DNA of 64,000 bases from Naegleria gruberi. Lineage: Eukaryota. Below are positions 4,602 to 62,585 of the stretch, in pieces (within the stretch, counting starts at the first letter, position 1; each line of letters opens with the position of its first letter). The notes below the pieces were generated by a model, which searched no databases, was not told the origin of the DNA, and worked only from the letters and a program-made list of their open reading frames with translations. The translations under genes were made by a program, and so were the position numbers. The stretch is taken from NCBI GenBank assembly GCA_000004985.1, contig GG738849.1, one strand, 5' to 3'.

Positions 4602-4625
4602 CAAACTACAAAAAAATGCAAAAAC

Positions 4626-7600
4626 ATGAGAAGACAACCACCTTCGTCATCGCCCAATAGTAGTAAACCACAACAACAATCAACATCTGCAAATGTGCAA
4701 CAACAATCAAATAATATAGTTCCTAATGTAGCCGTCAGTGAAACTAGTAGACAACATCCATTTTTCTTGCAAGGAAAAGATGAGCCCATCCTTTCCGAAT
4801 CACTGCCTCCAAAAGTGAGAGGCCAATGCTTGGGAGAGATATTCCTATGCTTGCATTGCATCAAGTGGATTACATAATAATAATAATAATTTTGCAATTC
4901 ATCCAATTTGGTGGGGAAGTGATGACAGATCTGTGTCACTTATTCCATCCAGCAATGAATCAAACAGCAAGGAGGATAAATCCAAAATCTCTGTAAGATA
5001 TCCTGTGAAAACAACAGAGGATATATTTAGAATATACCTGTCGAGTATGTAGTATTCATGCAATTTCATTAATTTACACAATATTAGATTCAAAGATTTT
5101 ATCATTGGTGATTGTGGATTGTTCAAGCCAAAATATTATTGCTGAAGCAGCAGTACCAGTTATTCAAATTTCATCATCAAATGCTATTCAAAAAGAGTAA
5201 GTATCTCAATATCATTTTCTGACCCTCAATAGATGGTTCAACGCTAAAAAAGGAAATGAAATTATTGCAAGTATTCAAGTGACAATAGCATTGGATTATT
5301 TTCTTCAAGTGACATCTTCTTCCCCTCAAAAACCTGCAAAAATTCAGAAAGAAATAGAAAGTGACTCAACAAGAGAAACAGAAAAGAAGCAAGAAAAGAA
5401 AGAACAGAAACCACAAGTACTGAAACACTACGATACAGATCCAGCAGAGGATGAAAAAACTGAAAAAGCTCCAAAAAAAACCGTATCAAAGACAGTAACA
5501 ATACGGGAGCCTTCAAGCAATAGCTTTGAACCAAAAAAGGTAACTGATCCAATTGACGATCTAATTCAGAATGCAAATATGCTAGAAAATGAAGTGAAAA
5601 AGTATTTATCAGAAAGCAATGTACCATTTTTCGATATACACTCTTTTAATAACAGAGAATCTACGGATGAAGTTCCCTTCTTCTTGAGGGATCAGGAGGA
5701 AGATGATAAGTAAGTATTCTTAATTCATCTGAGCATTTTAATTCTTCAAAGTTTCTCTGCTTCCATATCAACGATTTCTCCACGAGCTAGTTTTGATGAA
5801 ACCCATCTCTCTGAGGAAGAGCCTGAGGAAGAAGAAACCCTTGCTCCTCCAAAAATTCCAATTCAACCTCCCCAACCTGTAATATACCACTTTTTCCAAT
5901 CACCTCCTCCTCAACCTCAATATCCAACCAAAAATAATTCACCTACCATTGCAGAGAGAAAGGTAAAATCACCTAAGGAAGAAAAATATACCCCTGCTGA
6001 GCCTAAACCAATAGCAAGTCAGGAAAATCCAGTCTTCAGACACCTCCACACTCACATTCATGTTGATGAAAAACCACCAGTTAAAACCAGAGTAAGTATA
6101 GATTTATTCGATTAACTGTATTAATAAGAATAGTTCAGTATAATGTTTCACATAATTTCTGCCAAGCTAACCAAACGAATAGAAGAAAAGGATAACTGTA
6201 GAATCAAGGTGGATTTTAAACTCCCTTTTGGAAAAGATAGAGGAAAGAGTTCCCAAAACATCATAGTTACCTTCGATGAAGATGTTCGAGTCAACACGTA
6301 TGAGATATTTTCCTTCTCCAACCAAAATGTATTTCTCCCAAAGTTTAGAGATTGTTGTATGGTTATTGAAATATTTGACAATTTCAACAATTTTCTTGGA
6401 CTCAATCTTCTCAATCTTAATATTTTCTATGAGGCATTTTCTTTTGAAAAAAATTCTCAGTACATGTTTCCAAATAAGGAGGAACCAGTGATTGGACATT
6501 ATGGAGCATTTTCATGTAGCAATCCTGTTTCGGATGAAGTGATTTTGGAAATGAATTGCGTGCTGGCATTCGGTACAGAGTTCCAGGTCAAGGGATTCCT
6601 CAATTATCAGAGAGCTGCAATGACGATTCAGAATTTCGTAAGGTCTTCCCTCTCAAAATCCAGAGATAAACATCCTGAAGAAAGAGACATGATAGAAGAT
6701 AACAAACGCTTTAAACCAAGACCAAATGATGAAATCGAACAACCACGAGAAGAATACGAAGAAGAGGAACAGTATCACGAAGAAGATCAATACCCTATTA
6801 CCGAAAGCCAAGATATTGTTCATCCTATCTCTAAACCAAGTTCTCGAAATCACCAAGGTCAACAACAACCTGTTAATATACCAAAATGTATACCTCTTCC
6901 TGTGTTGTCATGTTTGACGGTGAGAATCAATAGAGCAACTGGATTGAAAGAGGCTGCCATTAAAGTGGGCTCATACAATTCACACCTTAGAGCAGCATCA
7001 CAAATTGGTGTGAATCCATTCATTGAGTTTGACAATATTAGTGGAGGTAAACCCATTCAAACACCAATATTAGCCAAAACATTTTGTCCAGTGTGGGACT
7101 TTGAGCATACTTTTGAGATATTTATTGATGAGTCAATGTTCCATACTTTGAATCATGATGAGATCATTTTCAAAGTTTTCCATAGAATTCCTCAATCTAG
7201 GATTGTCAGTCCCAATACCCCAACAGTAATTCAACTTGGAACAGTTGCGATACCTTTAAAGTATCTATTGAAATGTAAGAATGGTATTTCAGGTTGGTTT
7301 GATGTTTATGCACAAGATGAATCCATTGTTGGTACTGTAGATATTAGTATGACCTTTGATGAGAATACTGTTAACAACCTGTTTTTGAAAGAGCCTAATT
7401 CCAAAGTGGTTCAATCAAACAAACCTTCCCATTCCATTTGCAGGTTTACTATTGTCATTGAAGAAGTGAATATACCAACAGAGGTTACAGAGAGTCTAGT
7501 GCCATTTTACATGTCAGAACAAGAGCAACCAATACCTTGCTTTTTCTTTTTATCTTACAGATTGTTGGGAGAAGATTCTGTCATTGATAGCAGGCTGTAT

Positions 7601-8959
7601 AAATCTTCAACTAATGTTTCAAAGACAATACTACATCATACTACAGAGTTTAAGAAGGTTATTGACTCCAAGTTCAAGAAGTTGGTAGAAAAGGAAAAGA
7701 TGACAATACAAATTTATTGCTCTATTGATAACGGAAAACCAGCAGACGAGCAAACCATTAGGAAAAGAGCCAAACTCATTGGTTGTGTCTATATTGACTT
7801 GAAAAAGTTGTTTGAAAAGGGAAATCAAAAAACAGCCTATATAAGTGGAATTTACAATATTATTAACACTGAATCGGATAATCTCAATAATGGAAATGTT
7901 AAAATCAAACTAGGATGTGAAAAGATCAATTTTGGAGAACACCAACAAAAGATCAGAGAAAGCCTCATTCTCAACAGTAATAACTTTAAAAATATTGGTG
8001 TTCAAGCCAATACGAGCTTTTCTCTTCAATCTGAAGATGACTCTCAATTTATAGAGCAAATGGAGGAGCCAGAAGTTACTATGGATGAAAAAGCTCTGAA
8101 AATAACAGAAGAGTACTTGAAGGTTCAAAGCACTTCAAGAAAGAGAGTCAAGGTTCAAACAACATTCTCTCCTAATCAATCTGTAATAGAAGAACCAGAG
8201 GTCAATAGTCCAGTAATTCCCTCCAAGGCACCTTTGAACTATCTCAACATTAACATTGAAGAGGCTAATTTACCAAAAATTTATGGATATCATGGTGTAA
8301 AACCAAGGAATCCATACTCTTTTGTGAGACTTGTTCATCCAACTGGAGATTTGGAAAAGAGAGAGTACAGAACCAGATCAATTGAAAATGAGTGCAATCC
8401 CCACTGGGATGAATACTTACAACTTCCAATATTTTCTCAAATTGAAAATCTTTCCCTTCAAGTTTTCAGCAAGGACGAAAGCAAAGATTACTTGATAGGT
8501 ATTTCTAATATTGATCTATCTGGTCTGTGGTATGGTCTGAAAAAAATAGATGGTTGGTATCATATTGAAGACGCTGAAAAGTCGAAAATTGTTGGACAAA
8601 TCAAGATTAGTATTTCACCCGAGTTGTCTGTAAACAAAATTTCATCTCCCCAACTAGTGTTCAATAGCATTTCCATTCCAGAGGTTGACTATAAGGCATC
8701 TCTAGGAAGAAGTTTTGATAGACACTTACACTCCCTTATTAATAAGAATCAACCTTCTCCAAGCAATGGTGATTATAATACTCCTTCGGCTGGTGCATCA
8801 ACGCCAATCATTGAAGATAATATTAGCAATAAGGAAGATACTGACATAAGGGAAATCCCTGCATCCTTATACTCTAGCATGAATAGCGTAAATTTGGAAC
8901 GCGAAAAAGAAAAACTGAAAAATCACTTGCTTGACCTAGAAAACTTGTTGAATAAATGA
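4626..8959 (+). CDS. CEP120-like centriolar protein with multiple C2 domains and an IQ motif. Multi-exon; the 5' exons are only partly resolved. Exons I could place: about 4626-4814 (Q/S-rich), about 4990-5195 (beta-rich, frame joins the next exon; not a confident C2 call), about 5255-5712, about 5755-6092, and the last exon about 6135-8959
   Basis: The last exon (ORF 6143-8959) contains two clear C2 domains, LSCLTVRINRATGLKE...TFCPVWDFEHTFEIF and VRLVHPTGDLEKREYRTRSIENECNPHWDEY...KDYLIGISNIDLS. It also carries the CEP120 hallmark PCFFFLSYRLLGEDSV (human CEP120 PEFFFYYSLLGNDVT) and the IQ-like motif AAMTIQNFVR. Upstream exons join through GTAAGT..AG introns of 42-45 nt with conserved frame, for example ...AIQKE|WFNAKKGNEII and ...EEDD|N-FSASIS. 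An in-frame ATG with no preceding exon was not found for the beta-rich exon at about 4990-5195, so exon 1 is tentative. Confidence 0.55.
4875..4890. repeat. (TAA)5 microsatellite in an intron or spacer of the CEP120-like gene
   Basis: ataataataataataat. Confidence 0.8.
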
Positions 8960-8960
8960 T

Positions 8961-22097: not shown

Positions 22098-22118
22098 GTT
22101 TAGCGCCAACTCGATTCC
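22098..22118. promoter_or_regulatory. E2F-like site TTTAGCGCCAAC followed by TCGATTC, about 70-90 bp upstream of the PCNA ATG (gene on the minus strand)
   Basis: TTTAGCGCC differs by one base from the canonical TTTGGCGCC. Read on the gene strand it is GGAATCGAGTTGGCGCTAAA, the same ATCGA..GGCGC arrangement as the other sites. PCNA is a classic E2F target. Confidence 0.45.
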
Positions 22119-29200: not shown

Positions 29201-31147
29201 GTGTTTGTTCGAAATGCTAAATTAAAAAAAATGTCTGAACACTGCTCACTTTCGGAACAACTTGCGACCATACTAGTGCTACGAGAGGAAAATTTACTCT
29301 CTGAACCAAAACGAACGGACACTGTGGAAGTAACAATACCCGATTATTTTTCAAAACATTATAATAGAGTTTTAAGAGATCCTCTGGGGGAGTATCGTTC
29401 TCTGATTGAAGTACAATCGGTTGAAGAGGCTAATAGTTTTATAACATTTTCTAAACAAATCTTTAATCAAGTCTCTGTGGAGAATAATATAGTAGAACCA
29501 TCAAATTATAAATTAATATCAAAATCAGAAATCACAAGACAGTCACCACTTCTCCAAGCGTTAATGGTGAAAAGACAACACGAATATATTGCACCAAAAA
29601 TTGTAAATGTACCTTCATCTGTTGTTCGATCAACAACTCCGAGCTTTGAAAATGTAAATAGTAATAATTCAGTTGTACAGCAACAACAAATAGGAAGGAA
29701 GCCTATTCGATCATCTCACAACAACAAGTCTTCTGATGTTATGGTCATTGATGATGACGAGGAAAAACAACCAAAAAGTTCCTTCGTGACAGCTAAACAA
29801 TTAGTGAAGAAAAACAAGGGTAGTAATAGTAAGGATATTATGTCTGATGATGAAAATGAAGAGGAAACAATCAAGAAAAAGACATTGAGCGACATTAAAA
29901 ATCCAACCTCTAACTATCATCCAGTCACTTCATTGACAAGAAATTGTGGAGAAAATACAGGTGGAACGAAAAGGAAAAAGTTTGTGCCACCTTTGAAAGA
30001 TAATGGCAATAATAATAGTAATAATAATAATAATTCGAGTTCAAATTCAGGAGAAAAGCCTGCAAAAAAGAAAAAGAAAGGTGCTGATGATGAAAAGGCT
30101 CCTGATTTATCTAAATTATTTGAGGATGGTGAAATACCAGAGGAGTTGTCACATCTAGATCCTAAATTGATTGAGACAATTTCTAATGAAATTTTGGAAT
30201 CTAAAGTATCTGTAACTTGGGATGATATTGCTGGTTTGGCCTATGCAAAGAAATCAGTGCAGGAGGCTGTTATTTGGCCCCTAATGAGACCAGATTTATT
30301 TACAGGATTAAGAAAGCCTCCAAAGGGTAAGTTATAATTTCTGTTTAAAATATTCAAATTTATTTAAAATATTAATGAAATAGGACTTTTATTATTTGGA
30401 CCACCTGGTACTGGTAAGACACTGATTGGTAAGGCTATTGCTCATGAGAGTGGATCAACCTTCTTTTCCATTTCTGCATCCAGTTTAACCAGTAAATGGG
30501 TTGGTGAAGGTGAAAAATTGGTGAAAACACTATTTTCTCTGGCTAGATATTTCCAACCTTCTGTTGTTTTTATTGATGAAATTGACAGTTTACTTTCTCA
30601 AAGAAGTGATGGAGATGCTGACAATGGATCTAGAAGACTCAAAACAGAATTTTTAGTTCAATTGGATGGTGCTTCTACAAATGATGACCAAGATAGAATT
30701 TTGATTGTGGGTGCAACCAATAGACCAGAAGAAATTGACGAAGCTGTCAGAAGAAGAATGGGCAAGAGATTGTACATTCCTCTTCCATCTAAGGAGGGTA
30801 GAAAGGAAATGTTTTTGAGACTTCTCGCCAAGAATCCTAATACACTCTCTGATGAAGAAATGGAAAAGTTAGTAGAACTCACTGATGGTTATTCGGGTTC
30901 TGATATCAAAAATCTTTGTGCTGAAGCTTCTATGTTCTCAGTTAGAGATCTTGGATCATTTATTAAGCATGCGTCAGCTGATCAATTGAGGCCAATTGAG
31001 TTTAAGGATTGTAGATCAGCCCTTAAATCAATTCGTCCTTCTGTAGCACAAAGTGATCTAGATAGATATATTGAATGGAATAGAACATTTGGTTCTTTTG
31101 ATTTTGATGAGAAGGAACAAGAAGAGTCATCAGCAAAAAGTGATTAA
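29201..31147 (+). CDS. AAA ATPase of the meiotic clade (fidgetin-like 1 type). Exons 29201-30326 and 30384-31147
   Basis: A 57-nt GTAAGT..ATAG intron splits the codon G|GA and restores ...[27 protein letters not shown] (Walker A). Downstream motifs are [11 protein letters not shown] (Walker B), [21 protein letters not shown] (second region of homology with arginine finger) and the C-terminal WNRTFGSF. A non-ATPase N-terminal region precedes the ATPase; the start may be ATG 29201 or 29231. Confidence 0.8.
30008..30034 (+). repeat. (AAT)n imperfect microsatellite encoding an Asn/Ser run in the FIGL1-like gene
   Basis: aataataatagtaataataataataat. Confidence 0.85.
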
Positions 31148-39027: not shown

Positions 39028-41439
39028 TTATTTCCTACATGATCGAAGTATTTTCTTAAAAACTCTAAACCAGCTCTTCTTTCCATAAACTAACCTTAGT
39101 CCAACATAGCTCAAAATCTTACAAACAATCCAAAAAGAAGTGAGAATTGCCAAATAGACCCACAACATGTAATGTGGATCTGAATATCCATAATTCTTTT
39201 CCAGGAAATAGGTTCCGTTTGTGTAGTAATTTGAAGGGAGGGTAGTATTTAAAGGTGTTTCTAGTTGAATATCAAACTCATTGATAGCCATAGCTTTGAA
39301 ACCATAAAACAGATAATTGAGATATTTAAACCAAGCTAACCATTCAGTATTATGAATACCATAAACCCCACTTGTTAATATAAACATAATATTAATTACT
39401 GGTGTAATTAAATTCAATAAAGGTGGTATAGGAACAAGTGAAACAAGCATTTGAGCAAAACTCACACAAGTCCAATGATAAGTAGCAAAAATAAGGCCGA
39501 AAATTAATACTCGATCATATTCCAATGTCAATCCAGTCATAAAATAAACGATTCCACCAAAAAGCAGCGAAAATATCGACGTTTCTATTAAATCCTCCAT
39601 TGTCTTGGAAATAAAAAACGCACTAGTTCTATAGATTGAACTATTTCTCTCCTGGGTCAACATTGGAATTTGATTAATTAAATTTTTCAAACTTGCAGAA
39701 AACGTTAAAGAGATATTTAAATTGAGAAAGGTAAAAATTTTACCCTTCAATGGCATATTGTTAGGATCTATTTGAAAGTATAATAATCCAATAAATACAG
39801 ATACTGCTATTTTTTCCACGAAAGGTATTAAAAATTCCACTTTCCAATTTCTCAATCTACTCAAATAATTTCTCATTATAAGTGTAAAAACAGAGTAAAA
39901 GAAGTTGGCATAATAAGGCTCGTAGTGAAAAGTTGTTGGATCATTTTCAAGATATCGATTTTCCTCCTTATTTTTCATGGGAATGAAGAAATCGTCCAAT
40001 TGTTTGATATACTCTGTGGCAAATAACTCACTCTGATCTAACGGCTCTTGTGCATCTTCGACTAGTATTGTTTCAAATGTCTCTGTCTGAAGGAGAGAAA
40101 TAACTTGGAACAAAAACTCTACTTCATTATGATTTGATTCATCAGCACTGACACCGATTTTTGAAAAATAGGTAATTAACTTGTTCGGTGGACCAAAGTA
40201 TAATTGATTTCCCTTATTAAGTATTGATATATAATCAAATAACTCTAGTTCTTTTAAAGATGGCTTGTGAGATGTGACCACCACTCCCACACCCATAAGA
40301 GCAATTGATTTCATAATTCTAATAAAATGGGCAGCCTCTCCAATTTCCATGCCATCTGTTGGATATTCAAGAAGTAATACTCTGTGTTTGAGAACATTCT
40401 GCACGGCAATGTGTAATCTCTTCTTCTCAGCTGTTCCAAGGGCTGAATAAAACACATTCTCCTTGTTTTTCAACTCGTACTTTTTGAGGAGGTATTCCAA
40501 ACGTTCCTCTCTACAATTTGAGGCTGCACTCTTAATGTTTGTCAATTTCAATTTGACTGTGAAATTCAAAATTTCCCTCACAGTCAAAACTGGGTGGGAT
40601 GTTGCAAAATGCTTTGGGACATGAGCAACCAGAGACTTGTATTGAGTTGATGTTAGTCTAATACTCGGTTTGTCATGACACGAACAAACAACCTTTCCAT
40701 TAATTAATATTTGGCCTCCAAAATCCTTAAAATCACCTCTCTGGGATAGTATATTCAATAGAGTTGACTTGCCACTATTAGAAGAACCAATGAGAGCTGT
40801 TATCTTTCCTGGTGTCGCAAATCCACACACATTCTTAAGATGCAATGATTCATTTGTAGCTCCTAAAGGATATTGCAATCCCTTCCACTCCAAGAAACAT
40901 CTCTCATCACCCTCAACAAGTGGGTCATCATGAAATTCAACCTTTGCCAGGGAGCTTGATTTCTTAAGAAAACCTACACCTGGATGTTTGATTGGCTTAA
41001 TTGTTCCTTTCAGAGTCAATTTCCTCTGTGGAACAACATTTAATTCAAACTCTACCGCACTATTTCTCCTACTACTTTTAAAAGACAATTCATTTCTCAT
41101 GGCTGAGGCAACAGCTTGCAATGTTGATGGAGAGGCAAAATGGTTATCCTCCAGTTTATCAACAACATCGGACGACACTTGAGAAATATCGACTACTACT
41201 TGTCCTATATCATCATTGGGTGATGAAGATGTTACAACTATTGAGGGTGGAAGTGAAGATGCTTGAGATTCTTGAGTGGATACCACTGCTTCCGACATTT
41301 TTTCGCACTTGATTAGTGTGGGTTCACAGAATGGTGTGTTTCTTTCCCGCTCTACAGTTGTTACAAGAACTGTACTTGGAATGCGTCTACTGACCTCTGC
41401 CACGTCTGGAGATTGGGTTCTTCTTAAAATGTTTAGCAA
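39028..41439 (-). CDS. ABCG (White-type) half-transporter with an N-terminal NBD and a six-helix TMD. The NBD catalytic motifs are degenerate
   Basis: Walker A GSSNSGKSTLLNIL is intact and the H-loop TSHKPS is present. The signature reads SALGTAEKKRLHIA instead of LSGGERKRLSIA. Walker B and catalytic base read LLLEYPTDG instead of LLLDEPTSG. The Q-loop glutamine is absent (AHVPKH). The C-terminal hydrophobic segments and the ABC2-type architecture are typical of ABCG. Confidence 0.8.
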   Translation of the reverse strand: MLNILRRTQSPDVAEVSRRIPSTVLVTTVERERNTPFCEPTLIKCEKMSEAVVSTQESQASSLPPSIVVTSSSPNDDIGQVVVDISQVSSDVVDKLEDNHFASPSTLQAVASAMRNELSFKSSRRNSAVEFELNVVPQRKLTLKGTIKPIKHPGVGFLKKSSSLAKVEFHDDPLVEGDERCFLEWKGLQYPLGATNESLHLKNVCGFATPGKITALIGSSNSGKSTLLNILSQRGDFKDFGGQILINGKVVCSCHDKPSIRLTSTQYKSLVAHVPKHFATSHPVLTVREILNFTVKLKLTNIKSAASNCREERLEYLLKKYELKNKENVFYSALGTAEKKRLHIAVQNVLKHRVLLLEYPTDGMEIGEAAHFIRIMKSIALMGVGVVVTSHKPSLKELELFDYISILNKGNQLYFGPPNKLITYFSKIGVSADESNHNEVEFLFQVISLLQTETFETILVEDAQEPLDQSELFATEYIKQLDDFFIPMKNKEENRYLENDPTTFHYEPYYANFFYSVFTLIMRNYLSRLRNWKVEFLIPFVEKIAVSVFIGLLYFQIDPNNMPLKGKIFTFLNLNISLTFSASLKNLINQIPMLTQERNSSIYRTSAFFISKTMEDLIETSIFSLLFGGIVYFMTGLTLEYDRVLIFGLIFATYHWTCVSFAQMLVSLVPIPPLLNLITPVINIMFILTSGVYGIHNTEWLAWFKYLNYLFYGFKAMAINEFDIQLETPLNTTLPSNYYTNGTYFLEKNYGYSDPHYMLWVYLAILTSFWIVCKILSYVGLRLVYGKKSWFRVFKKILRSCRK

Positions 41440-41888: not shown

Positions 41889-44800
41889 CTGAGGCGGCTA
41901 CAGAAAATGCTGATCACCATTCAGTGTATGATGAAAGTGATTTCTCCTCCGACGAAAATGAAGATGTAATCGATGATGACGAAGTGTATGATGATCTTTT
42001 TGATGATTCTGATTTGGAGGAAGATGATGATCAACTAGTAAAAAAACGGAAGCTGAAATCAGTAAGGAGAATGAGCAATTAGAGAAAATTCTTCAAATTT
42101 TCAATAATGAAAATCTATTTACAAAGAATGACGCTTTTGTATTGAGAAGTGAGGAAGAAAAAAAGTTTATTTCAACGGAGGCTGAAGCCAAACTGAAATC
42201 CCTTTACGAGTCTCTATATATTGCTCACTTGAACAAGAAAACGCTCTATCAAATCGAGCCGTTGGAGTTGTTATACTTATTGACCAATCACCGAGATTTA
42301 GATTGGATTGACATGCTAGGAAATGCAAAAGAAAGTAAACGGATTGAATTAATTCAAAAAGAAATTCAATCTCGAATAGATCAACAAACGGCTGAAGAAG
42401 CAGAGGAGGATAAGAATAATTTGGAAGGATATGTTTTGAGACGAGTTAGAAATCATAGAGATAGAGTTGTACATAATTTGGAAACGAAAGTTGAAGAAAT
42501 AATTAGGAGTATTCTCAATGTATTATTTTTTCCTGTAAAGAAAGGAACAACAGTGAAACCATTGGTTGATTTCGGTCCAAAAAAACTGAAACCCAAACTA
42601 AGGAGTATTGTTAAATCATTAGTGTATGGTGATTTAATGCATATTGAGGGGGAATCCGAAACAATTTCACCAGAGGAAGAAAGTGAAATGGTCGAAGTTT
42701 CTGGTCCTGAATTGGCTCAGAAGGAAATCGAACGAATGACAAAGGAACTGCACAACCTAAAGTCTCTCAACCTAGCATACAATGAAAAGGAGGAGGTTCT
42801 TATAGATATTACGAGGGATAAATTCTACGAGTTATTTAATGAAACAAGAAGACAAGCAATTGAGATTAGAAACTTGAAAGAGCAATTGGAAGGAAGGATA
42901 AAAATAATAGAAAAGATGAATGAGGAATATATCTATGATTTTCAGAGGTTGAAAATGACAATTATTGAAAAATTGGAACAAAAAAAGGCACTCACTGATG
43001 ATATTATGCTACTTTCAACTATGGGTGGTTCTTTAATTGCTGATTTTTCATTACTATTGGAGGAGGAAAGAAAAAAGGCACTAGATCAATTGAAATCTGT
43101 TAGAATAACTTTTGGTAAGGAAAAGAAAGTTATTGAAAACCAAAAGTTAAAAGAAATGCTCATTTGGAAGCAAAAGCTGGAATATCTTATTCAGGATCGA
43201 AACAGAATTGTCGAAGAATTGAAGAAAACTCACGAAGAAGAGAAAAAGCGCCTGATGGAAGAACTCTCTCTCCACAAGGGTAAAAAGGGACTTAAAAAAC
43301 TCAACTCTAAGGCCAATCTCTCCACCAGAAAGATTTCTTCTCCAATGCTGAGTGTGAGGGATAAACCTAAGAAACATCTCTTCATGACTCACACCAAGCC
43401 AATTAGTATTGAGCCAACCATTAAAATCTCAGCTCCAACCATAAGTGCAACAATCACCCACGGATCAACTAGACATCTTCTAACAAAACCATCTCCTTTG
43501 ATGAATATTACACATGCTGTAACCAATACTGTCACACCAACTACTCACCCACTACCTCCCCAACAAACTCCACTCACAACTACACAATCCTCAACTGTGG
43601 CCACCACTACCAACGCTAATTCCACAATACCCACTCGTGCTAGCTCAGACCTGCCCTCAAAAATTCTCACAACATCCCACTACCACAGTAATTCAAGTAC
43701 TGCACTACATCCAACAAGACCTAAGAGTGGAGGTGCAATTCTTTCAAAGAAAGAGTCTGTGGTTATTCCAGTTGACGAAGGTCCAATGTTGAGGACCTCT
43801 CTTGATAGAAAGCGAGTCAACTTACTTAGAAGTGCTAAAAAGAGTTACAGAGAAGTTTTGGATATAGACTCTGAAGAAGAAGCTTTGCTGAACGATAAAC
43901 CCGTTAAATATAAGGGAAGAAACAACATGACAAAGCTACATAGCGAAATTCTTGTCCACAAGAAACAAAACAGAGCACTCAGAGTCTTATTGAAGGAGAA
44001 GAATGAGAAACTTCGAACAGTAGTGGCAAAACTAAAGCAAGTGCGACAAAAGAGAGAAACGGCCTTGGATGAGTTGGAAAAGTTTAGAGAAATGCTAGCC
44101 CAAGAAATGAGCACCAATTCTTCTCTTAGAATTCAAATTAAGAGTCTAACCGAGCAAGTCAAAAGATACTCAAGACAGGAAAGAAACAATTCTCTCATGG
44201 AAGCCAAAAATGAAAACAAATCCATGCAAAGAATTCGAGAGGAGGGAAAGAAACGAACATTTGAGATCAGATCCAAGTTTGGTGGACTAAAAAACCAAAT
44301 GAAATTTTGGTCAAGGGAAATGAAAGAGGAGTTAATGAATGTAATAGATATAGAAGGAATAGAAGAGTTGGAAACGGCTGTTGCTGAAGCAGGAGCCGTA
44401 GATAGTGTATTTTCTAAAAACTTGGAAAAGTGGGATCGTTTCATTAGGAAAACTGCTCTCAAAAAAGCATCAAGTCAACCAGCATTAATGGTTGCTCAAA
44501 ATGGTATGTTGTCGATCTCTTTCTATTATTTTTTATTGTGAAAAGAAAACAAAAAGGCCAGCAGAGTGATGATATGTGACAGAGCAATGCAGACTGAAAT
44601 GACTTGCTTTCCAAATGCTGAGAGTGTATCAAAGCAAACCCTTAGTGTTGGAAAAACTGTTCCAAAGGATCTTGAAGACGCTTTTGATACCATTGAACAG
44701 CAAAATGTTGTTCTTGATGAACTAATTCATGATATTGAAAGAAATTACGAATTGGATAAGGCTGAAAAGACTAAATTTTACCGAATCAAAGAAAAGAAGG

Positions 44801-48045: not shown

Positions 48046-48348
48046 CTAACGTTGAGAGAGGACACTTGTGTGCTTAGGTAATGATAAACAGTGTTATTTT
48101 TTTAATACGTCAACAAGTAATCCTTCTCTGGATATTATTGCTTTTTACTCTGTTTTTTTATTATTTAATTAAAAACGAGTTTGGATGATGGCACTGTTAG
48201 GATTATTATTGGTGCTACAAAAAACTGTAATAATACTGAGTTGAAAAATTAGTTTATTATTTTGATGTAGTAGTTGGTTCTTCCTAACCTTCTTTTGTTC
48301 TGTTAAAATCAACAAATAATTTAATAACAAAAAGGTGGAGGCTGATTG

Positions 48349-49156: not shown

Positions 49157-49168
49157 GGTTCCCGCTAC
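49157..49168. promoter_or_regulatory. GGTTCCCGCTAC (TTCCCGC E2F half-site) about 20 bp upstream of the IFT20 ATG
   Basis: Isolated GC-containing motif in an AT-rich 114-bp spacer. TCGAATTTTTTTAAT 60 bp upstream resembles TCGAATTTTAAT in the FIGL1 element. Confidence 0.25.
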
Positions 49169-49185
49169 AAAGTTCTACAAAAAAA

Positions 49186-49628
49186 ATGGAAGACTTGAAA
49201 TTAACGTTCGATGAGGAATATAACTTGAGAGTGTTTGACCCAGCCAAGTTTAGTACTTCCGAGATGATGAAGACCAAATCGGAGGAGTTTGCTTCCAGTA
49301 AGTGTTGTATGGAAGGATTTAATTTAATAATTCATGTGAAGAGATTAAGGATTTTCAGAAACTTGTTGCTGAAGTAATGCAAATATTGAACAATCAGGGG
49401 AAAACAATTGAAGATGAAAAATTAAAAGCCATTGGTATGAGAAATCTTGTTAAAGGGGAGGAGGATCGAAGAAAGAATTTATTGAGAGAATACAACCAAT
49501 TAATAACAGACAAGCACACAGAATTGGAGAGGTATATTGATGAATTGGAGTCGCTGAAAAAAGTTGACCAAGAACAAAAGAAGCTTATTGAAAGATTGAG
49601 CAACAATGAGCCAACAGATTTAGATTAA
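49186..49628 (+). CDS. ift20: Intraflagellar transport protein 20 (IFT-B complex), about 127 aa. Exons 49186-49297 and 49359-49628
   Basis: Collinear with human IFT20. LTFDEEYNLRVFDP compared with LHFDELNKLRVLDP. EDEKLKAIGMRNLVK compared with ENEKMKAIGARNLLK. ELERYIDELESLKKVDQEQ compared with QLERYRVEYEALCKVEAEQ. A 61-nt GTAAGT..TTCAG intron (phase 1) joins ...EEFAS to KLVAEVMQIL. Confidence 0.85.
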
Positions 49629-50710: not shown

Positions 50711-50729
50711 ATGGATTTGGCGCCATTTT
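50711..50729. promoter_or_regulatory. Near-palindromic E2F-type site ATGGATTTGGCGCCATTTT in the divergent promoter between the 303-aa membrane protein gene and the Arp gene
   Basis: TTTGGCGCCA is the canonical palindromic E2F/DP core. The flanking ATGGATTTGGCGCC parallels ATCGAGTTGGCGCT at PCNA. Confidence 0.4.
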
Positions 50730-50908: not shown

Positions 50909-52831
50909 ATGTCCTTCTTCTTTCGGAGAGGAAATCGTTCCACTAGTCAAAACAATAATCAGTCATCGGTGGCATCCATAAATTCAACATCGGATGATGA
51001 AGAGGAGGTGGCTACACCATCAATAACAGATCAGAATAAGGTATTAATTTCATCACCACGTTTCCGAAGTAGTAGCCTCTCACAACAGCAAAACAATCAA
51101 AGAACAGACGAAAGAATTGAGATTGCAGTGGAGGGTGATGATAGTGGCACCCCTTCAACTCTATCGAAAGTGGACATTAATAGAGTAGAACAATCGAGTG
51201 GATTATTGGAAATTCCTTCATCTGCCTACAAGAGAAAAATCTCATTCTCTGATGAATCAAGTCCAGAAACAACACCAACAAAAACAGCAACATCAGATAA
51301 TTTGTATAGTTCAGCACTTACTACTAAGGGTAATTATAAAGTGACACCAAATAGTAATAGAAGAGTTTTGAATAAGATTCCTTCCTCTCTCAGATTGGAT
51401 CCAAAAACATTTACAAGGAAGAACTCAACTCCTCAATTATTCACCTCCCCAAGAAATCCTTTATCATTATCTCTCTCTAAATTGAATGAAACAAAAATAT
51501 CATCCGAAAATATAAGCAATGTTGTGCTGAGTAGTAGGAGCTCCTCGCAGCTTGTAGTAATTATTGAAATAGGGAGAAAATATTTCAAGTGTGGAATATC
51601 TGGAGACTATTGCCCAAGAGTAGTTCTTCCTGTACCTTATGAACTTTCAGAAATGTTGTGTAAATGTAAAAATCATAATTTTAATATAGACCACATGAAA
51701 CAAGCCTTTTCCAGTTTTGAAAAAGATATTGGATCTTGTAATATAGAAACTGATGTAATTTTTGATGAGTATACACGAATTGGATTCGGGAACAGTATTG
51801 AAGATGATGCCTATTATGAAGAAAAACTGTCTCACCTTTTGGGAAAACTATTAAAGAGGATATTCATCGATGAACTCAAACTTCATTTGGATAGCATAGA
51901 TCATGTGGTAATTTTGGAGAATGTTTATTCACTACATGAAAATCTAGTGAGGAGAACAGTGGAAGACATGTGCAATAGAAAACGATTTTCCAAACTGAAA
52001 GGAATTAAATTTATCAATGCTCAAAGTTGTGCCCTAATACCTAGCTCTTGCTCGGTAAAATTTCAAACAGCAAATGATAGCAACAAATTGCTTTCTCCAC
52101 CCATCCTAAGTTTGACTTCGAGGAAAGGAAACGAAGAGATGGATGTAAATGGCTTGGTTATTGATTGTGGATTTTCAGAATGTAAAATTGTACCAGTCTT
52201 GTTTGGATGTATTGTGCAGGCTGGTGTGGTAGTTGTTGACACTGGATCAAAACATATTCTTCGACGATTGAAGGACAATTTGATGAAAATGAATCCAAAA
52301 GAATCACTGACACCTCAGCACTGTGACCATGTGGATCTCAATAAGTTATTCTATGAGCATGATGAAGGAGAAATGCTCAAGTATAGCAAACTGATGGATT
52401 GTGAAACAATGCTATTGGAAGATATTTTCACAAGAGTTTGTTATTGTGATGGTGAAGGAGATAATCCACTTGTTCCATTTTCAGATATTATTCAGTATTG
52501 GAATGGCAGGTATTGTATCTCAATTACTGACGCCATCAGAAGAGAGGCTTGTGACATTTTATTTGACCCTCTCATGGAAGGTATTGTGGAAAGTTTGAAA
52601 CGAATTGAAATTGATCCACGATCTAAAATTTTGAAAAACATTCTGGTATGTGGAGGTTTGGCTGAAATTGCTGGTTTCAAAAAGAAGCTCCTTAGAAGTT
52701 TGAGGGATATACTGAGTGAGCGAGATATGACAAGGAGTTGGTTGAAAAACATTGGAATCAATATGGATGATACAGTCTCTCATTCCATTCTCAATTGGTA
52801 TGGTGCCTCAATTATTTCCTCACAATTATAA
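50909..52831 (+). CDS. Divergent actin-related protein (Arp10/11- or Arp8-like) with a Ser-rich N-terminal extension of about 200 aa
   Basis: Actin-fold signatures LVIDCGFSECKIVPVLFG (actin VLDSGDGVTHTVPIYEG) and KNILVCGGLAEIAGFKKKL (actin [20 protein letters not shown]). The rest is highly divergent. Confidence 0.7.
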   Translation: MSFFFRRGNRSTSQNNNQSSVASINSTSDDEEEVATPSITDQNKVLISSPRFRSSSLSQQQNNQRTDERIEIAVEGDDSGTPSTLSKVDINRVEQSSGLLEIPSSAYKRKISFSDESSPETTPTKTATSDNLYSSALTTKGNYKVTPNSNRRVLNKIPSSLRLDPKTFTRKNSTPQLFTSPRNPLSLSLSKLNETKISSENISNVVLSSRSSSQLVVIIEIGRKYFKCGISGDYCPRVVLPVPYELSEMLCKCKNHNFNIDHMKQAFSSFEKDIGSCNIETDVIFDEYTRIGFGNSIEDDAYYEEKLSHLLGKLLKRIFIDELKLHLDSIDHVVILENVYSLHENLVRRTVEDMCNRKRFSKLKGIKFINAQSCALIPSSCSVKFQTANDSNKLLSPPILSLTSRKGNEEMDVNGLVIDCGFSECKIVPVLFGCIVQAGVVVVDTGSKHILRRLKDNLMKMNPKESLTPQHCDHVDLNKLFYEHDEGEMLKYSKLMDCETMLLEDIFTRVCYCDGEGDNPLVPFSDIIQYWNGRYCISITDAIRREACDILFDPLMEGIVESLKRIEIDPRSKILKNILVCGGLAEIAGFKKKLLRSLRDILSERDMTRSWLKNIGINMDDTVSHSILNWYGASIISSQL

Positions 52832-52842
52832 ACATGACATAT

Positions 52843-54210
52843 TTATTTGTATTTAAAAACAATGTCATCAAAGAGTGGATTTTCAAAGCTGGCCTTGATA
52901 AGATCTCCCTTTTCTAATTCTCTTGACTTTCCAGTCATTGTACCACTAGAAATGATTTGACCTGCCAAAACATCACGACCAAATTCACCTGTAATTCTGT
53001 TAATACATTGCAGACAAGTATCTAATGGACCTTTAGTTTCATTTGGATCATATTGACCATTGCAAACGAAACTTCCCTTGGCCTTTGTATCAGATTCACC
53101 ATTCAAGAAGAGTTCAACATTTTCAAATGACAACTTGGCAACTTGTGTCTTATCGAAAGTTGATGGCTTTTCTGGAATGATTAAATTAATATGACCACCC
53201 AAATCAGCAATTCTTGTCAAGACACCTCCATTATTTTCAACATTATCAACTCTTGTACCAATAATTTCTACAACACCTTTAACATGATCCAATGCATCAA
53301 TTAATTCTTCCTTTGTATATGGTTCAGAACGAGCCTTTAAATCCTTAGCCAAAACAAAACCAAATTCAATTTCTACCATTGGTCCAAAGTTTGTCACATC
53401 TTCAACTTGAACAGATTCTGGATTTTTCAAAACTTGATGTTCAAAAATAGGTCCCAAGAATGGTTGCTTGATGTTCAATCTCACCAAAGCCTTTGGTTGA
53501 GTTGCTCCAATTTTCCATCCAACTAATTTCCAACCCTTTTCCTTTTCCAAGAGATCAATCAATCTCAATTGAGCATATTGAGCTTCAGTTTCAGATTTTG
53601 GAAGAATGTTTTGAGGGAATGTTAAAATAGTTCTATTTGCTAATTTTCTCTTTTTGATAGATTTGAAAGCGGCCATTGGTGTAACTTCATCAGGATCAAT
53701 TTTAGAGAGTGCTTCCTTGTTAAATTTGAGAACAGGAACATCTTCATCTTCATTTTGTGGCTTTCTTTCTTTAATTTCATTTTCTAATAACTTTTGAATG
53801 ATTTTATCATCTCTCAATGTAATTTCTTCAATTTGTTCCAAAGCTGATTTTTGTTTAGGATTAGTTTCAAGGAAATCTTGATAATTTTTATATTGAAATT
53901 TCATCAATAATCTTGCAATATATTCAATTCTTTTTTGTTCATCACTATTCCATTTATCTTGTTTAAACCACAATTGGAGTGGCTTTTCAAGTGGTTTATC
54001 AAGAATTTTGTTAATGTACTTTTTCTTTGGACGAGCTTGAGCAACCATTGGTTTTGCTTCTTCAAAGGAAGCAGCAGAAGCATTATCCTGTTGATTGAGA
54101 GTAATTTCCGATCTAGAGAAATTTCTAACAACAACATTGCTGAATAAATACTGTTGTTGTGGCGATGAGGAATTGGATAAAAGCCTTCTGATTGGGAGAG
54201 TTGTTTTCAT
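52843..54210 (-). CDS. 2-keto-4-pentenoate hydratase / 2-oxohept-3-enedioate hydratase family (MhpD/HpcG-like, FAH superfamily) domain fused to an N-terminal extension of about 190 aa with a presequence-like start
   Basis: The C-terminal 260 aa align with E. coli MhpD. [26 protein letters not shown] compared with [39 protein letters not shown] compared with [32 protein letters not shown] compared with [30 protein letters not shown] compared with GDIILTGALGP. The N-terminus [34 protein letters not shown] resembles a mitochondrial targeting peptide. Confidence 0.7.
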   Translation of the reverse strand: [455 protein letters not shown]

Positions 54211-55774: not shown

Positions 55775-56779
55775 TTATGAGTAAACCTTCTTTACAATAA
55801 TTCTATCAGATGGATGAGATTTGTTTCCCATTTCCCAAGTATAGGAAACGGCACATGCAAGATATTCACCACTAGTACTAAAAGTCAATACAGCAATGCT
55901 TGTACTATAGGGTGCTGAACGAGAAACCCTCCTCTTCTTATCCTTATCCCAGAACATTAATACACCATCACAACCACCTGTTACAAATATATTTGGATGT
56001 CTTGGATTGAAATCAATAGTATTGACTGGATAGAGTGTTTCTACAGCTTGTTGTCCTGTTTGACTTCTGTGACATTTGAAAGCATAATTCGAATTTGAAT
56101 TGTTAAAGTATTCTACTGCTACTCTTCCTTCAATAGATCCGATAGCATAAGAATTATTGTCACCAAAACACTTGACAACTCTGGTTTGATACTTCAATCC
56201 ACTTTGCTTTCTAATATGTAAGGAGAGAGGTTGATTGGAATCTTTTTGAATATGCACAATGAATATGAGCAAGTCTTGGGATGCTACCACCAATTTAGAT
56301 CCATCAGGAGTGACATCCATGCTGTAGACCTTTTTGGTCAGGTCCAAGGTCTGTATGCATGTATTCTGTTGAGTATCCCAGAGCTTGATTGTTCCATCCC
56401 AACTTCCAGTTATGATTTTCTCTGGTGTTCCAGGAATTGTTGAAATACACTTGATAGCACTCTTGTGAAAATCAGGAAATGTTCCAATCACACTTTGTTC
56501 TCCACTCTTCATATTGTATTTGACCAATTTTCCGTCCAAACCAGCACTAAATGTACACTCCTCACCATTAGAAAAACATCCACACAATACACTTGTCTGA
56601 TGTTCATACTTGGTAACTAAAGAGTTGGATTTGACATTGTAAATTCTAACGGATTTATCCCAACTTGTAACCAGTAGCAAATCATGATTCAAGGTTGAAA
56701 AATTTAGGCTAGAAATGCCATCTGTTGGTGGATCGTGCAAGTCAAAGCCTTCCTCTGTAATGAGTTGTTGTGAAGACAT
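55775..56779 (-). CDS. bub3: Mitotic checkpoint protein BUB3 (WD40), 334 aa, intronless
   Basis: Collinear with human BUB3. [30 protein letters not shown] compared with [63 protein letters not shown] compared with [40 protein letters not shown] and YPVNTIDF are conserved. Confidence 0.9.
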   Translation of the reverse strand: [334 protein letters not shown]

Positions 56780-56793
56780 TTTTTTGTTAAATT

Positions 56794-56806
56794 TTGTGGC
56801 GGGAAT
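56794..56806. promoter_or_regulatory. E2F-like TTGTGGCGGGAAT 15-30 bp upstream of the BUB3 ATG (gene on the minus strand)
   Basis: GGCGGGAA core identical to the CEP120-like promoter site; located just beyond the BUB3 start codon at 56779. Confidence 0.4.
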
Positions 56807-56932: not shown

Positions 56933-57739
56933 TTAAATACAATTTTCTCTAGATGGTTGTGAAATTGGTAATGTACGATGTGTCTTGAGGTTGCTCTTGC
57001 ACTTAAAGTTGGCACTATCTTCAACATACTTGACTTGATGATTGATAATCTTTGGTACTTTGTGTACTTGTGTGCCTGGAATTCTCTTGACTGGTAAAAT
57101 ATCCTTTTCCATAGCTTGTTGTTCTCTCTTCTTTTGTCTATCTATTCTACTCATTTGAGCATTTGCAACATTTCTTCCGTGCTTCAAACGAACAATTGGA
57201 TCCTTCACGAATGGTTCCTCTCCTTCAAAGTGGAATTGAAGTTCTGTTTGTTTGGAAATATCAGCAAGACGTGGAGCAACAACAATATATTTTCTATCAT
57301 ATACTTCATCATGAACAAATTGAACCCAACCATCTCTCAAAGCATGAAGAGTGTAATCCTTTCCTTGAAGAACATTGTATCCTGGCCAATATGTATTTCC
57401 TCTTTGTCTAATAAGAATTTCTCCAGCTTTAACTCTTTCTCCTTGTCTTCTCTTTAAACCTAATCTCTTGGAGTGAGAGTCTTTGGTTTTACTTGTAGAA
57501 CCACCACTCTTCTTGGAAGCGAAACGAAGTTGTGTTTGTTGTTGAGAAATAGAATTAATCAAAAATTGTGAAGTTGATGATGTGGTAGATGATGTTAATG
57601 ATGATGTATTGACTGAGAGTTGGGAGAATAATAAACCCGTGCTATTCAAACGTGGTTTATTAAACACGGAGAGAAGTGACGAGGAACAAAATTTCTTCAT
57701 TTTTTTAAAGAAATAAAAAAATTTAAAATTTATTTTCAA
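56933..57739 (-). CDS. Mitochondrial ribosomal protein bL27m with an N-terminal presequence and a C-terminal extension
   Basis: Core [68 protein letters not shown] compared with bacterial bL27 [63 protein letters not shown]. The start is either ATG 57739 or 57702. Confidence 0.8.
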
Positions 57740-61510: not shown

Positions 61511-62284
61511 TTAAAGAAGAATAGCATTAACAAAATCCATGCCTGTTGGAACTTCAATTCTCTGCCTATTCATATTGGTATTTTTCATTCCTTCTATTGA
61601 GAGAGGATTACAATCTCTGTTGTTCCATCTTTCAAATAGCTTTTTCTTTCTGTATTCTTGATTGACAAGTTTGGATTGAGTCAAAACATGAGCCAATTCC
61701 TTCTCCGATCTCTCTAACTTTTCCTTAAAGCTTGAAGTATCCATAGAGTACAATCGCATAATATCTGCCATGTCAATAGGTTTTGTTTCAATATTAGCAA
61801 GCTTTGGTTGTTCCACTAATTGTAAAACTGGAGAAATCAATGATTCATCCTCTTCCCTTCTAGTATGTTCTTGGACAACTCTACTGGGAGGGGATAACAA
61901 TGATTCATGGCTGTCTTTTCTATTGTTTTTTGGGGGAATTTGTTTCTTCTCTTGTTTTTCTTTTAGGGGTGATGAAACTCTTTCCATCCCACTTTCAACC
62001 TTAACTTCTAGAGCTGGGGTTGAATCCGAAACACCTTCCTTCTGTGTTTGCTTCTCAATAATTGGTTTCCAAAGCCTTCTTCTTGCATTGATAAACCAAT
62101 TGTTCACCTGAACAAGTGTTAGCGAGGTTTCCTCTGCCAAGACAGCCTTCTCCTCTTCCGAAGGATACGGATGTTGAAAGTGTAAAAAAAGCCAATTCTT
62201 CAAATGCTCAACAGCCTCCTTAGGTAATGTACCTCTCGATTGTTTAACCATTTTCTGTATTGATTGTTGATTGAATGATGACAA
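61511..62284 (-). CDS. TALE-class (three-amino-acid loop extension) homeodomain transcription factor, 257 aa
   Basis: Homeodomain TLPKEAVEHLKNWLFLHFQHPYPSEEEKAVLAEETSLTLVQVNNWFINARRRLWKP, with PYP in the loop and WFINARRR in helix 3, both typical of MEIS/PBX/KNOX-type TALE proteins. Confidence 0.8.
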   Translation of the reverse strand: MSSFNQQSIQKMVKQSRGTLPKEAVEHLKNWLFLHFQHPYPSEEEKAVLAEETSLTLVQVNNWFINARRRLWKPIIEKQTQKEGVSDSTPALEVKVESGMERVSSPLKEKQEKKQIPPKNNRKDSHESLLSPPSRVVQEHTRREEDESLISPVLQLVEQPKLANIETKPIDMADIMRLYSMDTSSFKEKLERSEKELAHVLTQSKLVNQEYRKKKLFERWNNRDCNPLSIEGMKNTNMNRQRIEVPTGMDFVNAILL

Positions 62285-62585
62285 TGATTATTATTTTTAC
62301 TATTACAAATCAGTGATGAAAAAATGAGTAAGGAATATATTTTTCAAAACTGCCTTAAAACTCTGCTATTTTTTTTTGTAGTTAAGTTTTGGAGGCAGTA
62401 TTTGAACAAGCTGCTGCTTGCCACAATATATAAAAATAACATTTGACATTAAGGTGCTTTGTAATATTTTGACTTTCACCAACCACAAAAGCATTTCATT
62501 CCGATCGCACAAAATAACCGCACAACATTTTCCATGTCATCACACATTCAATAATAATTAAATTAAAAATCAACCAGATAAAAAA

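What the first reader, a model, noticed from the sequence alone, without database searches (positions are those of the whole stretch)
49186..49628. IFT20 and a CEP120-like gene in a Dictyostelium-like genome: the source organism must build cilia and centrioles
The composition, codon bias and poly-N/Q tracts look like a social amoeba, but dictyostelids lack cilia and IFT genes. A clear two-exon IFT20 at 49186-49628, and a CEP120-like C2 protein at 4626-8959 with the diagnostic FFFxYxLLG segment, show the organism is a flagellated or amoeboflagellate protist. The gene-model expectations taken from Dictyostelium (intron size, promoters) should be re-calibrated: introns here are only 42-86 nt.
Basis: partly seen in the sequence, partly recalled or inferred. 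Interest (0 to 1): 0.5.

Follow-up and report, generated by a model that had tools for sequence, protein, structure and literature searches.

The report
Known IFT20 gene of Naegleria gruberi
The window comes from the well-studied amoeboflagellate Naegleria gruberi, and the flagged gene is its ordinary, already annotated IFT20 (a small part of the machinery that builds flagella); the neighbour called "CEP120-like" is instead a C2CD3 centriole protein whose public gene model is damaged by a one-base frameshift.

Summary
The two-exon gene at 49186-49628 is real. It has a 44-nt GTAAGT...AG intron and encodes 132 aa, not 127. It matches Pfam IFT20 over the full length (E=9e-39), and its only solved-structure relative is Chlamydomonas IFT20. 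The spliced protein is identical, residue for residue, to Naegleria gruberi NEG-M XP_002681631.1 (UniProt D2V2E9, named "Intraflagellar transport protein 20"). Four other proteins in the window also match N. gruberi exactly, on the same 850-kb scaffold.

The organism is a heterolobosean (Discoba), not a relative of Dictyostelium, and this has been public knowledge since the 2010 genome paper.

The second line of evidence carries the wrong label. The gene at 4626-8959 is a C2CD3 orthologue, not CEP120. Once a 1-nt frameshift at T4875 is bridged, its N-terminus matches the C2CD3-specific C2 domain (PF25339, E=1e-30), as do the N. lovaniensis and Willaertia orthologues. No CEP120 match was found. 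The public model XP_002681622.1 (1181 aa, "predicted protein") skips the frameshift region and a second conserved block.

Introns measured here are 36-57 nt.

One side lead: a GC-rich, E2F-like element (TTCCCGC) sits 20-80 nt upstream of IFT20, C2CD3, the BUB3/RAE1-family gene and PCNA.

Verdict: already known, low interest.

The parts
49186..49297 (+). IFT20 exon 1 (ATG to codon 37 plus 1 nt)
   Evidence: The splice model gives a product identical to XP_002681631.1 / D2V2E9.
49298..49341 (+). IFT20 intron, 44 nt, GTAAGT...AAG, phase 1
   Evidence: this is the only acceptor that keeps the reading frame open. The alternatives at 49344, 49350 and 49359 all give stops.
49342..49628 (+). IFT20 exon 2, including the TAA stop; encodes the conserved KLKAIG core and the C-terminal helical region
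   Evidence: Pfam PF14931 covers residues 6-123. The protein aligns to Chlamydomonas IFT20 chain 8bd7_W over residues 5-126, E=2.7e-17, 34% identity.
49159..49184 (+). Candidate promoter-proximal elements upstream of IFT20: TTCCCGC (49159-49165) and CTACAAAAAA (49175-49184). Their function is inferred only.
   Evidence: The same pair of elements sits upstream of C2CD3, at 4594-4600 on the minus strand and at 4606-4615.
4626..8959 (+). Exons are 4626-4874, 4876-5044, 5088-5196, 5233-5709, 5752-6091 and 6134-8959; introns are 43, 36, 42 and 42 nt. The conceptual protein is 1389 aa.
   Evidence: tblastn with the N. lovaniensis orthologue; model; PF25339 C2_C2CD3_N, 106.6 bits, E=1.3e-30, positions 2-143 of 145, plus C2.
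4875..4875 (+). Apparent 1-nt insertion (frameshift) next to a (TAA)5 run, inside the C2CD3 N-terminal C2 domain. As written, the frame runs into five TAA stops.
   Evidence: Removing one base restores IKWIT-NNNNNF-AIHPIWWGS, which is colinear and equal in length with N. lovaniensis IKWVT-NTYQNY-SIHPVWWGS. The public model P0017 jumps over this region.

Best explanation
The window is a stretch of the Naegleria gruberi NEG-M nuclear genome. The gene at 49186-49628 is the single-intron gene for IFT20, the smallest subunit of intraflagellar-transport complex B.

By homology, IFT20 acts as a short helical adaptor in the peripheral IFT-B2 module. There it pairs through its C-terminal helix with IFT54/IFT57, and it travels in IFT trains that carry building blocks along axonemal microtubules.

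In Naegleria, the gene would be needed only when starving amoebae, which have no centrioles, assemble two basal bodies de novo and grow two flagella.

The gene at 4626-8959 encodes a C2CD3 orthologue. C2CD3 is a multi-C2-domain protein of the distal centriole that, in animals, promotes centriole elongation and distal-appendage formation.

What is shown: the identity of the organism, the gene models and the family membership. What is inferred from orthology: the binding partners, the localisation and the induction during differentiation.
For: Organism identity:
- The spliced IFT20, PCNA, the BUB3/RAE1-family WD40 protein, DPM1 and a 455-aa protein are each identical to N. gruberi NEG-M entries on one 850,158-bp scaffold.
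- The IFT20 entry is XP_002681631.1 / UniRef D2V2E9, named 'Intraflagellar transport protein 20'.

IFT20 family membership:
- Pfam IFT20 scores 132.8 bits, E=9.1e-39, over the full model, and it is the only family hit.
- The only PDB hit is Chlamydomonas IFT20 from the in-situ IFT train structures 8bd7/8ruy, E=2.7e-17, colinear over 122 residues.
- Same-length (132 aa) orthologues exist in N. fowleri (86% identity) and Willaertia magna (74%), and both carry PF14931.

C2CD3:
- The N. lovaniensis and Willaertia orthologues hit PF25339 at 1.3e-31 and 1.6e-26.
- The frameshift-corrected N. gruberi protein hits it at 1.3e-30.
- The domain architecture 'C2CD3N-C2 followed by PKC-type C2 domains' and its presence in the kinetoplastid-heterolobosean clade are described in PMC3495828.

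Biology:
- Naegleria divides without centrioles, then forms centrioles and flagella within about 1 h (PMC5839779).
- Basal-body and axonemal genes are induced just before assembly (bioRxiv 10.1101/2024.01.08.573270; PMC12183034).
Against: Nothing contradicts the identification. The limits are these:
- No expression, localisation or interaction data for this particular gene were seen here. The primary Naegleria differentiation and genome papers are not in the held library.
- The rest of the assembly could not be searched for the other IFT subunits.
- As the sequence stands, the C2CD3 reading frame is broken at 4875. Its integrity in the living strain is therefore not shown.
Confidence: 0.97

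Rival explanations
1. The source is an amoebozoan, namely a ciliated relative of dictyostelids, as the 'Dictyostelium-like genome' framing implies.
For: The window is AT-rich (GC 0.31-0.37), gene-dense, and has poly-N/Q tracts in several ORFs.
Against: Five proteins match Naegleria gruberi NEG-M at 100% identity. Naegleria belongs to Discoba/Heterolobosea. The closest IFT20 and C2CD3 relatives are other heteroloboseans: N. fowleri, N. lovaniensis and Willaertia. The published N. gruberi GC content of 35% fits the window (PMC9928731).
Confidence: 0.005
2. The gene at 4626-8959 is a CEP120 orthologue.
For: It is a large protein with several C2 domains. It contains a segment CFFFLSYRLLGED that resembles, from memory, the start of the second C2 domain of human CEP120.
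Against: - Only C2 and C2_C2CD3_N are found in Pfam at E<=1.
- The N-terminal domain matches the C2CD3-specific model over its full length, in this gene and in two orthologues.
- Among PDB chains, which to my knowledge include CEP120 C2 domains, none is hit by phmmer at E<=1 or by a profile at E<=10.
- The motif has an extra residue and is not conserved in N. lovaniensis.
Confidence: 0.02
3. The IFT20 ORF is a decaying or non-functional remnant, or a chance coiled-coil match, rather than a working gene.
For: None specific. The protein is short and largely helical, which is the kind of sequence that can give spurious matches.
Against: - The Pfam match is full-length and about 106 bits above the cut-off.
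- The ORF is intact, with a canonical intron.
- There is 86% and 74% identity at identical length to orthologues in two other flagellate-forming heteroloboseans, which indicates purifying selection.
Confidence: 0.01
4. The C2CD3 frameshift at 4875 is genuine in NEG-M (a null or truncated allele) rather than an assembly or consensus error.
For: The base is present in the window sequence. The public annotation had to invent a long 'intron' to get past it. The site adjoins a (TAA)5 microsatellite, which is prone to slippage.
Against: NEG-M forms normal flagellates (bioRxiv 10.1101/2024.01.08.573270, methods). The sequence on both sides of the shift is strongly conserved, with no other defects. 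The assembly is an old Sanger draft (PMC9928731, Table 1). The one independent contig found (L001) does not reach this position.
Confidence: 0.15

Closest known systems
IFT20 (Chlamydomonas reinhardtii IFT20, PDB 8bd7 chain W; human IFT20)
   Same: The size is similar (132 vs 135 aa). The alignment is colinear over 122 residues at 34% identity, including the KLKAIG(L/M)RN core. The match to Pfam PF14931 is full-length. The protein is expected to be an IFT-B2 subunit that binds IFT54/IFT57.
   Different: Nothing structural was seen. The context differs: Naegleria makes its flagella, and hence presumably uses IFT, only transiently after de novo basal-body assembly. The vertebrate Golgi-anchoring role of IFT20 (my own knowledge) is untested in Naegleria.
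C2CD3 (human/mouse centriole distal-end protein, OFD14)
   Same: There is an N-terminal C2CD3-type C2 domain (PF25339, E=1.3e-30), followed by further C2 domains. This architecture was defined in PMC3495828. In animals, C2CD3 is needed for centriole elongation and distal appendages (PMC5839779).
   Different: The protein is shorter (1389 aa; human C2CD3 is much longer, from my own knowledge). Only two PKC-type C2 stretches are recognised by Pfam. The reading frame is interrupted by one base in the reference sequence. The public model is truncated to 1181 aa and is unnamed.
CEP120
   Same: It is a multi-C2-domain centriolar protein, and it has a locally similar hydrophobic strand (FFF..Y.LLG).
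   Different: No detectable sequence relationship was found in Pfam or PDB searches. The N-terminal domain is of the C2CD3 type. The motif is not conserved within the genus.

Membership tests
IFT20 (Pfam PF14931) | Full-length match to the family model above the curated threshold | tested here: met
   132.8 bits against a cut-off of 27, E=9.1e-39, model positions 2-119 of 119. It was the only family hit among 24,736 models.
IFT20 (Pfam PF14931) | The best characterised relative is a bona fide IFT20 (a proxy for a reciprocal best hit) | tested here: met
   The only PDB hit at E<=0.01 is Chlamydomonas IFT20, 8bd7_W/8ruy, E=2.7e-17. The sequence is the UniProt entry D2V2E9, already named IFT20.
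IFT20 (Pfam PF14931) | Small (about 130 aa) protein conserved in ciliated relatives | tested here: met
   132 aa. There are 132-aa orthologues in N. fowleri (86% identity) and Willaertia magna (74%), both with PF14931.
IFT20 (Pfam PF14931) | Binds IFT54/IFT57 in IFT-B2 and moves in IFT trains; required for ciliary assembly | not testable with these tools
   Inferred from orthology only.
IFT20 (Pfam PF14931) | Co-occurrence with the rest of IFT-A, IFT-B and the BBSome in the genome | not testable with these tools
   The assembly is not searchable here. The literature describes Naegleria as building canonical flagella with induced flagellar genes (PMC12183034; bioRxiv 10.1101/2024.01.08.573270). 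The genome paper itself is not held.
C2CD3 | N-terminal C2CD3-specific C2 domain (C2CD3N-C2, PF25339) | tested here: met
   The corrected N. gruberi protein scores 106.6 bits, E=1.3e-30, over positions 2-143 of 145. Orthologues score 1.3e-31 and 1.6e-26. The public truncated model scores 35.8 bits over positions 84-143 only.
C2CD3 | Array of about five PKC-type C2 domains C-terminal to it (PMC3495828) | tested here: inconclusive
   Pfam C2 is found in two stretches, the best at residues 1170-1258. Further conserved blocks are not recognised by Pfam, and no structure was predicted.
C2CD3 | Localises to the distal centriole and promotes elongation and appendage assembly | not testable with these tools
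   Known for animals (PMC5839779). Inferred for Naegleria.
CEP120 | Detectable homology to CEP120 C2 domains or the family model | tested here: not met
   No family other than C2 and C2_C2CD3_N is found at E<=1. No CEP120 chain appears among the PDB hits at E<=1 with phmmer or E<=10 with a profile.
   The sequence is CFFFLSYRLLG, with two residues between FFF and Y. N. lovaniensis has CYLFVTYRFYG at the same place.
CEP120 | Long C-terminal coiled coil | not tested
   No coiled-coil prediction was run. Only a short LEREKEKLKNHLLDLENLLNK tail is visible.

The most novel reading that the evidence does not exclude
A GC-rich, E2F-like promoter-proximal element (TTCCCGC, extended form TTCCCGCYACAAA) lies 20-32 nt upstream of the start codons of IFT20, C2CD3 and the BUB3/RAE1-family gene. 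The related TTGGCGC lies 80 nt upstream of PCNA. In Willaertia, the same heptamer lies upstream of C2CD3 and of a CFAP74-like ciliary gene.

If this is a real E2F/DP-type site, then Naegleria would drive at least some de novo centriole and flagellum genes through the same factor class that controls S-phase genes. No ciliary transcription factor is known in Naegleria, and RFX, FOXJ1 and XAP5 are absent (PMC12183034). This would echo the E2F4/5-Multicilin programme of animal multiciliated cells.
Probability: 0.1. Interest if true: 0.55.

Novelty: already known. Interest (0 to 1): 0.08.

Why it matters
For the scan, this is a clean positive control. A reader with no tools correctly deduced the lifestyle of the organism from two genes. 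The biology itself has been textbook knowledge since the 2010 N. gruberi genome, and the gene is already named IFT20 in UniProt.

The useful by-products are small:
- One corrected family assignment, C2CD3 rather than CEP120.
- Evidence that the public N. gruberi C2CD3 model (XP_002681622.1, 'predicted protein') is truncated around a 1-nt frameshift. This can make the protein look absent or atypical in surveys of centriole-protein conservation.
- A testable lead on a shared promoter element.

Tried and rejected
1. Genomic context. I looked up the N. gruberi IFT20 and DPM1 proteins with the look-up of encoding contigs, and neither is on record.

2. Independent check of the frameshift. I used the 99%-identical ENA metagenome contig (L001). 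It aligns to window 5166-10585 at 98.3% identity but diverges upstream and does not reach position 4875.

3. An intron instead of a frameshift at 4875. The only GT...AG pairs are 22-24 nt long, or would delete residues that are invariant in three species (VRGQCLGE, IHPIWWG). This was rejected.

4. CEP120 membership. Rejected.

5. Primary papers. The Cell 2010 genome paper, the J Cell Sci 2010 differentiation paper and the PNAS 2013 IFT evolution paper are not in the held library. Statements about induction of flagellar genes therefore rest on later papers that cite them.

6. Strict conservation of TTSSCGC upstream of orthologues. This was only partly found. There is an exact site at -52 of Willaertia C2CD3. 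N. fowleri IFT20 has only a near-match (ATGGCGCCAT) and N. lovaniensis C2CD3 has GCGCGG. None is upstream of Willaertia IFT20.

7. BUB3 versus RAE1. The PDB search favours RAE1 (7e-42) over yeast Bub3 (2e-26). To my knowledge human BUB3 is not among the solved chains, so this is unresolved.

Full report
**Observation**

The sequence at 49186-49628 contains two adjacent ORFs in different frames. They join through a single 44-nt intron (49298-49341, GTAAGT...AAG) into a 399-nt CDS of 132 codons plus TAA. No other nearby acceptor keeps the frame open. The stated length of 127 aa is off by five.

The product matches Pfam IFT20 (PF14931) at 132.8 bits (cut-off 27), E=9.1e-39, across the whole model, and no other family is hit. 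Against all PDB chains, the only match is Chlamydomonas IFT20 from the in-situ IFT-train structures (8bd7_W, 8ruy). That match has E=2.7e-17 and is colinear over 122 residues at 34% identity.

**Source organism**

An exact-sequence look-up shows that the spliced IFT20 is identical to Naegleria gruberi EFC48887.1 / XP_002681631.1 (NAEGRDRAFT_62977). UniRef already names this entry 'Intraflagellar transport protein 20' (D2V2E9).

Four further proteins in the window are likewise identical to N. gruberi NEG-M entries, all on one 850,158-bp scaffold:
- PCNA at 21232-22029
- a WD40 protein at 55775-56779
- DPM1 at 8961-9800
- a 455-aa protein at 52843-54210

N. gruberi belongs to Heterolobosea within Discoba, far from Amoebozoa. 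Its published genome is a 40.9-Mb Sanger assembly at 35% GC (PMC9928731), which matches the window's 31-37%. So the 'Dictyostelium-like' look is compositional convergence.

Naegleria amoebae divide without centrioles. On starvation they make basal bodies de novo and grow two flagella within about an hour (PMC5839779; PMC3144413). Basal-body and axonemal genes are transcriptionally induced just beforehand (bioRxiv 10.1101/2024.01.08.573270; PMC12183034).

IFT20 orthologues of identical length exist in N. fowleri (86% identity) and Willaertia magna (74%), and both carry PF14931.

**Mechanism**

By homology, the protein is the small helical IFT-B2 subunit that pairs with IFT54/IFT57 and rides in IFT trains. 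This is inferred, not shown. I saw no expression or localisation data for this gene, and the primary Naegleria papers are not in the held library.

**The second line of evidence carries the wrong label**

The large ORF at 6143-8959 hits only the generic C2 domain, plus a sub-threshold match to the C2CD3 N-terminal C2 domain. It finds no CEP120 chain in the PDB.

Its full-length orthologues in N. lovaniensis (1447 aa) and Willaertia magna (1412 aa) carry PF25339 C2_C2CD3_N at E=1.3e-31 and 1.6e-26.

Using the N. lovaniensis protein as a guide, I rebuilt the N. gruberi gene. The exons are 4626-4874, 4876-5044, 5088-5196, 5233-5709, 5752-6091 and 6134-8959. The introns are 43, 36, 42 and 42 nt, all starting GTAAGT or GTATGT. 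The 1389-aa conceptual protein matches PF25339 at 106.6 bits, E=1.3e-30, over positions 2-143 of 145, plus C2. No other family is found at E<=1. A three-species profile still finds only PKC-type C2 domains in the PDB at E<=10.

In N. lovaniensis it is CYLFVTYRFYG.

The gene is therefore a C2CD3 orthologue. The architecture of a C2CD3N-C2 domain followed by PKC-type C2 domains, and the family's presence in the kinetoplastid-heterolobosean clade, were described in 2012 (PMC3495828). In animals, C2CD3 promotes centriole elongation and distal-appendage assembly (PMC5839779).

**A frameshift and a damaged public model**

The rebuilt gene needs one base (T4875) to be skipped. As written, the frame runs ...IKWIT and then into five TAA codons. 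With one base removed, it reads IKWIT-NNNNNF-AIHPIWWGS. This is colinear and equal in length with N. lovaniensis IKWVT-NTYQNY-SIHPVWWGS.

No plausible intron bridges the shift. The only GT...AG options are 22-24 nt long or would delete invariant residues.

The public model XP_002681622.1 / D2V2D1 (1181 aa, 'predicted protein') starts at the same ATG. It jumps from residue 40 to residue 140 of my model, and it also omits a conserved 109-residue block after ...PPVKTR. As a result it retains only the last third of the diagnostic domain (35.8 bits, positions 84-143).

Whether the extra base is an assembly error or a real allele could not be settled. The only independent contig (L001, 98.3% identical to window 5166-10585) stops short of the site.

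**Introns**

The measured introns are 44 nt (IFT20) and 43, 36, 42 and 42 nt (C2CD3). Frame-preserving candidates elsewhere are 48 nt (26255-26302), 57 nt (30327-30383) and 42 nt (44504-44545).

**A lead noticed on the way**

IFT20 and C2CD3 share a pair of elements just upstream of the ATG. One is TTCCCGC, at 49159-49165 (+) and 4594-4600 (-). The other is CTACAAAAAA, at 49175-49184 and 4606-4615.

The degenerate E2F-like pattern TTSSCGC occurs 8 times in the window against 3.08 expected; 1 of 100 shuffles reached 8. Six of the 8 hits lie within 120 nt upstream of one of 22 start codons. That space is only 4.1% of the window, giving a binomial P of about 1.3e-7. The six genes are:
- C2CD3 (-32)
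- IFT20 (-27)
- the BUB3/RAE1-family gene (-26)
- PCNA (-80)
- an ABCG transporter (-49)
- a membrane protein (-101)

CTACAAAAAA occurs 4 times against 0.58 expected.

In Willaertia, TTCCCGC lies 52 nt upstream of C2CD3 and 23 nt upstream of a CFAP74-like gene. The N. fowleri IFT20 and N. lovaniensis C2CD3 promoters have only near-matches (with the gene tables).

This is clearly a promoter-proximal element. Whether it is bound by an E2F/DP factor, and whether it has anything to do with the ciliogenic programme, is speculation. Reviews state that no cilia transcription factor is known in Naegleria and that RFX, FOXJ1 and XAP5 are absent (PMC12183034).

**Verdict**

The finding is real and correctly interpreted in its main point, but it rediscovers an annotated gene in a model amoeboflagellate. 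Novelty: already known. Interest is low. The modest added value is the CEP120-to-C2CD3 correction, the defective public C2CD3 model, and the promoter-motif lead.

Noticed in passing
window 4870-4880 (T4875), gene 4626-8959: There is an apparent 1-nt frameshift beside a (TAA)5 run, inside the C2CD3 N-terminal C2 domain. The public model XP_002681622.1 (1181 aa) skips residues 41-139 and a second conserved 109-aa block of the 1389-aa protein rebuilt here.
   Followed up: partly
window 4594-4600, 22103-22109, 41344-41350, 49159-49165, 50717-50723, 56799-56805; L005 2949; L003 2194: The E2F-like heptamer TTSSCGC occurs 8 times against 3.1 expected. Six of the 8 hits are within 120 nt upstream of start codons, including IFT20, C2CD3, PCNA and the BUB3/RAE1-family gene. 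In Willaertia it also lies upstream of C2CD3 and a CFAP74-like gene. It is only partly conserved in N. fowleri and N. lovaniensis.
   Followed up: partly
window 4606-4615, 48215-48224, 49175-49184, 62372-62381(-): CTACAAAAAA occurs 4 times against 0.58 expected. It sits 11-20 nt upstream of the IFT20 and C2CD3 ATGs and recurs upstream of their orthologues. Most genes here have an A-run immediately before the ATG. It may be an initiator or leader element.
   Followed up: partly
window 28243-29091 (+): This is a 282-aa histone-fold protein with a roughly 120-aa N-terminal tail. Its best PDB matches are centromeric H3 variants (S. pombe Cnp1 1e-14, Cse4, CENP-A), ahead of canonical H3. It is a candidate Naegleria CenH3. 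The exact single-ORF product is not in the protein collection.
   Followed up: partly
RAE1 and BUB3 are paralogues, and to my knowledge human BUB3 is not among the solved chains, so the assignment is unresolved. It is annotated only as 'predicted protein'.
   Followed up: partly
window 29201-31147 (+): This is a multi-exon AAA ATPase of the meiotic clade. Its C-terminal part matches Fidgetin-like protein 1 best (E=7e-63), ahead of spastin and katanin.
   Followed up: partly
L001 355-5744 vs window 5166-10585: An ENA metagenome contig (ERZ929261) is 98.3% identical to this Naegleria region but diverges completely upstream of window 5166. Either a close N. gruberi-lineage relative is present in an environmental sample, or the contig is chimeric.
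   Followed up: no
window 12030-18377 (+); 24033-28151 (+); 50909-52831 (+); 61511-62284 (-); 56933-57739 (-): Other neighbours identified by Pfam are ATG2 (2115 aa, single exon), a SNF2-type helicase split by a 48-nt intron, a divergent actin-related protein, a TALE (KN) homeobox protein, and mitochondrial ribosomal protein bL27 with a long N-terminal extension.
   Followed up: partly
window 4617-4661: A short upstream ORF (ATG at 4617, 14 codons, out of frame) overlaps the C2CD3 start codon at 4626. Whether it lies within the mRNA is unknown.
   Followed up: no
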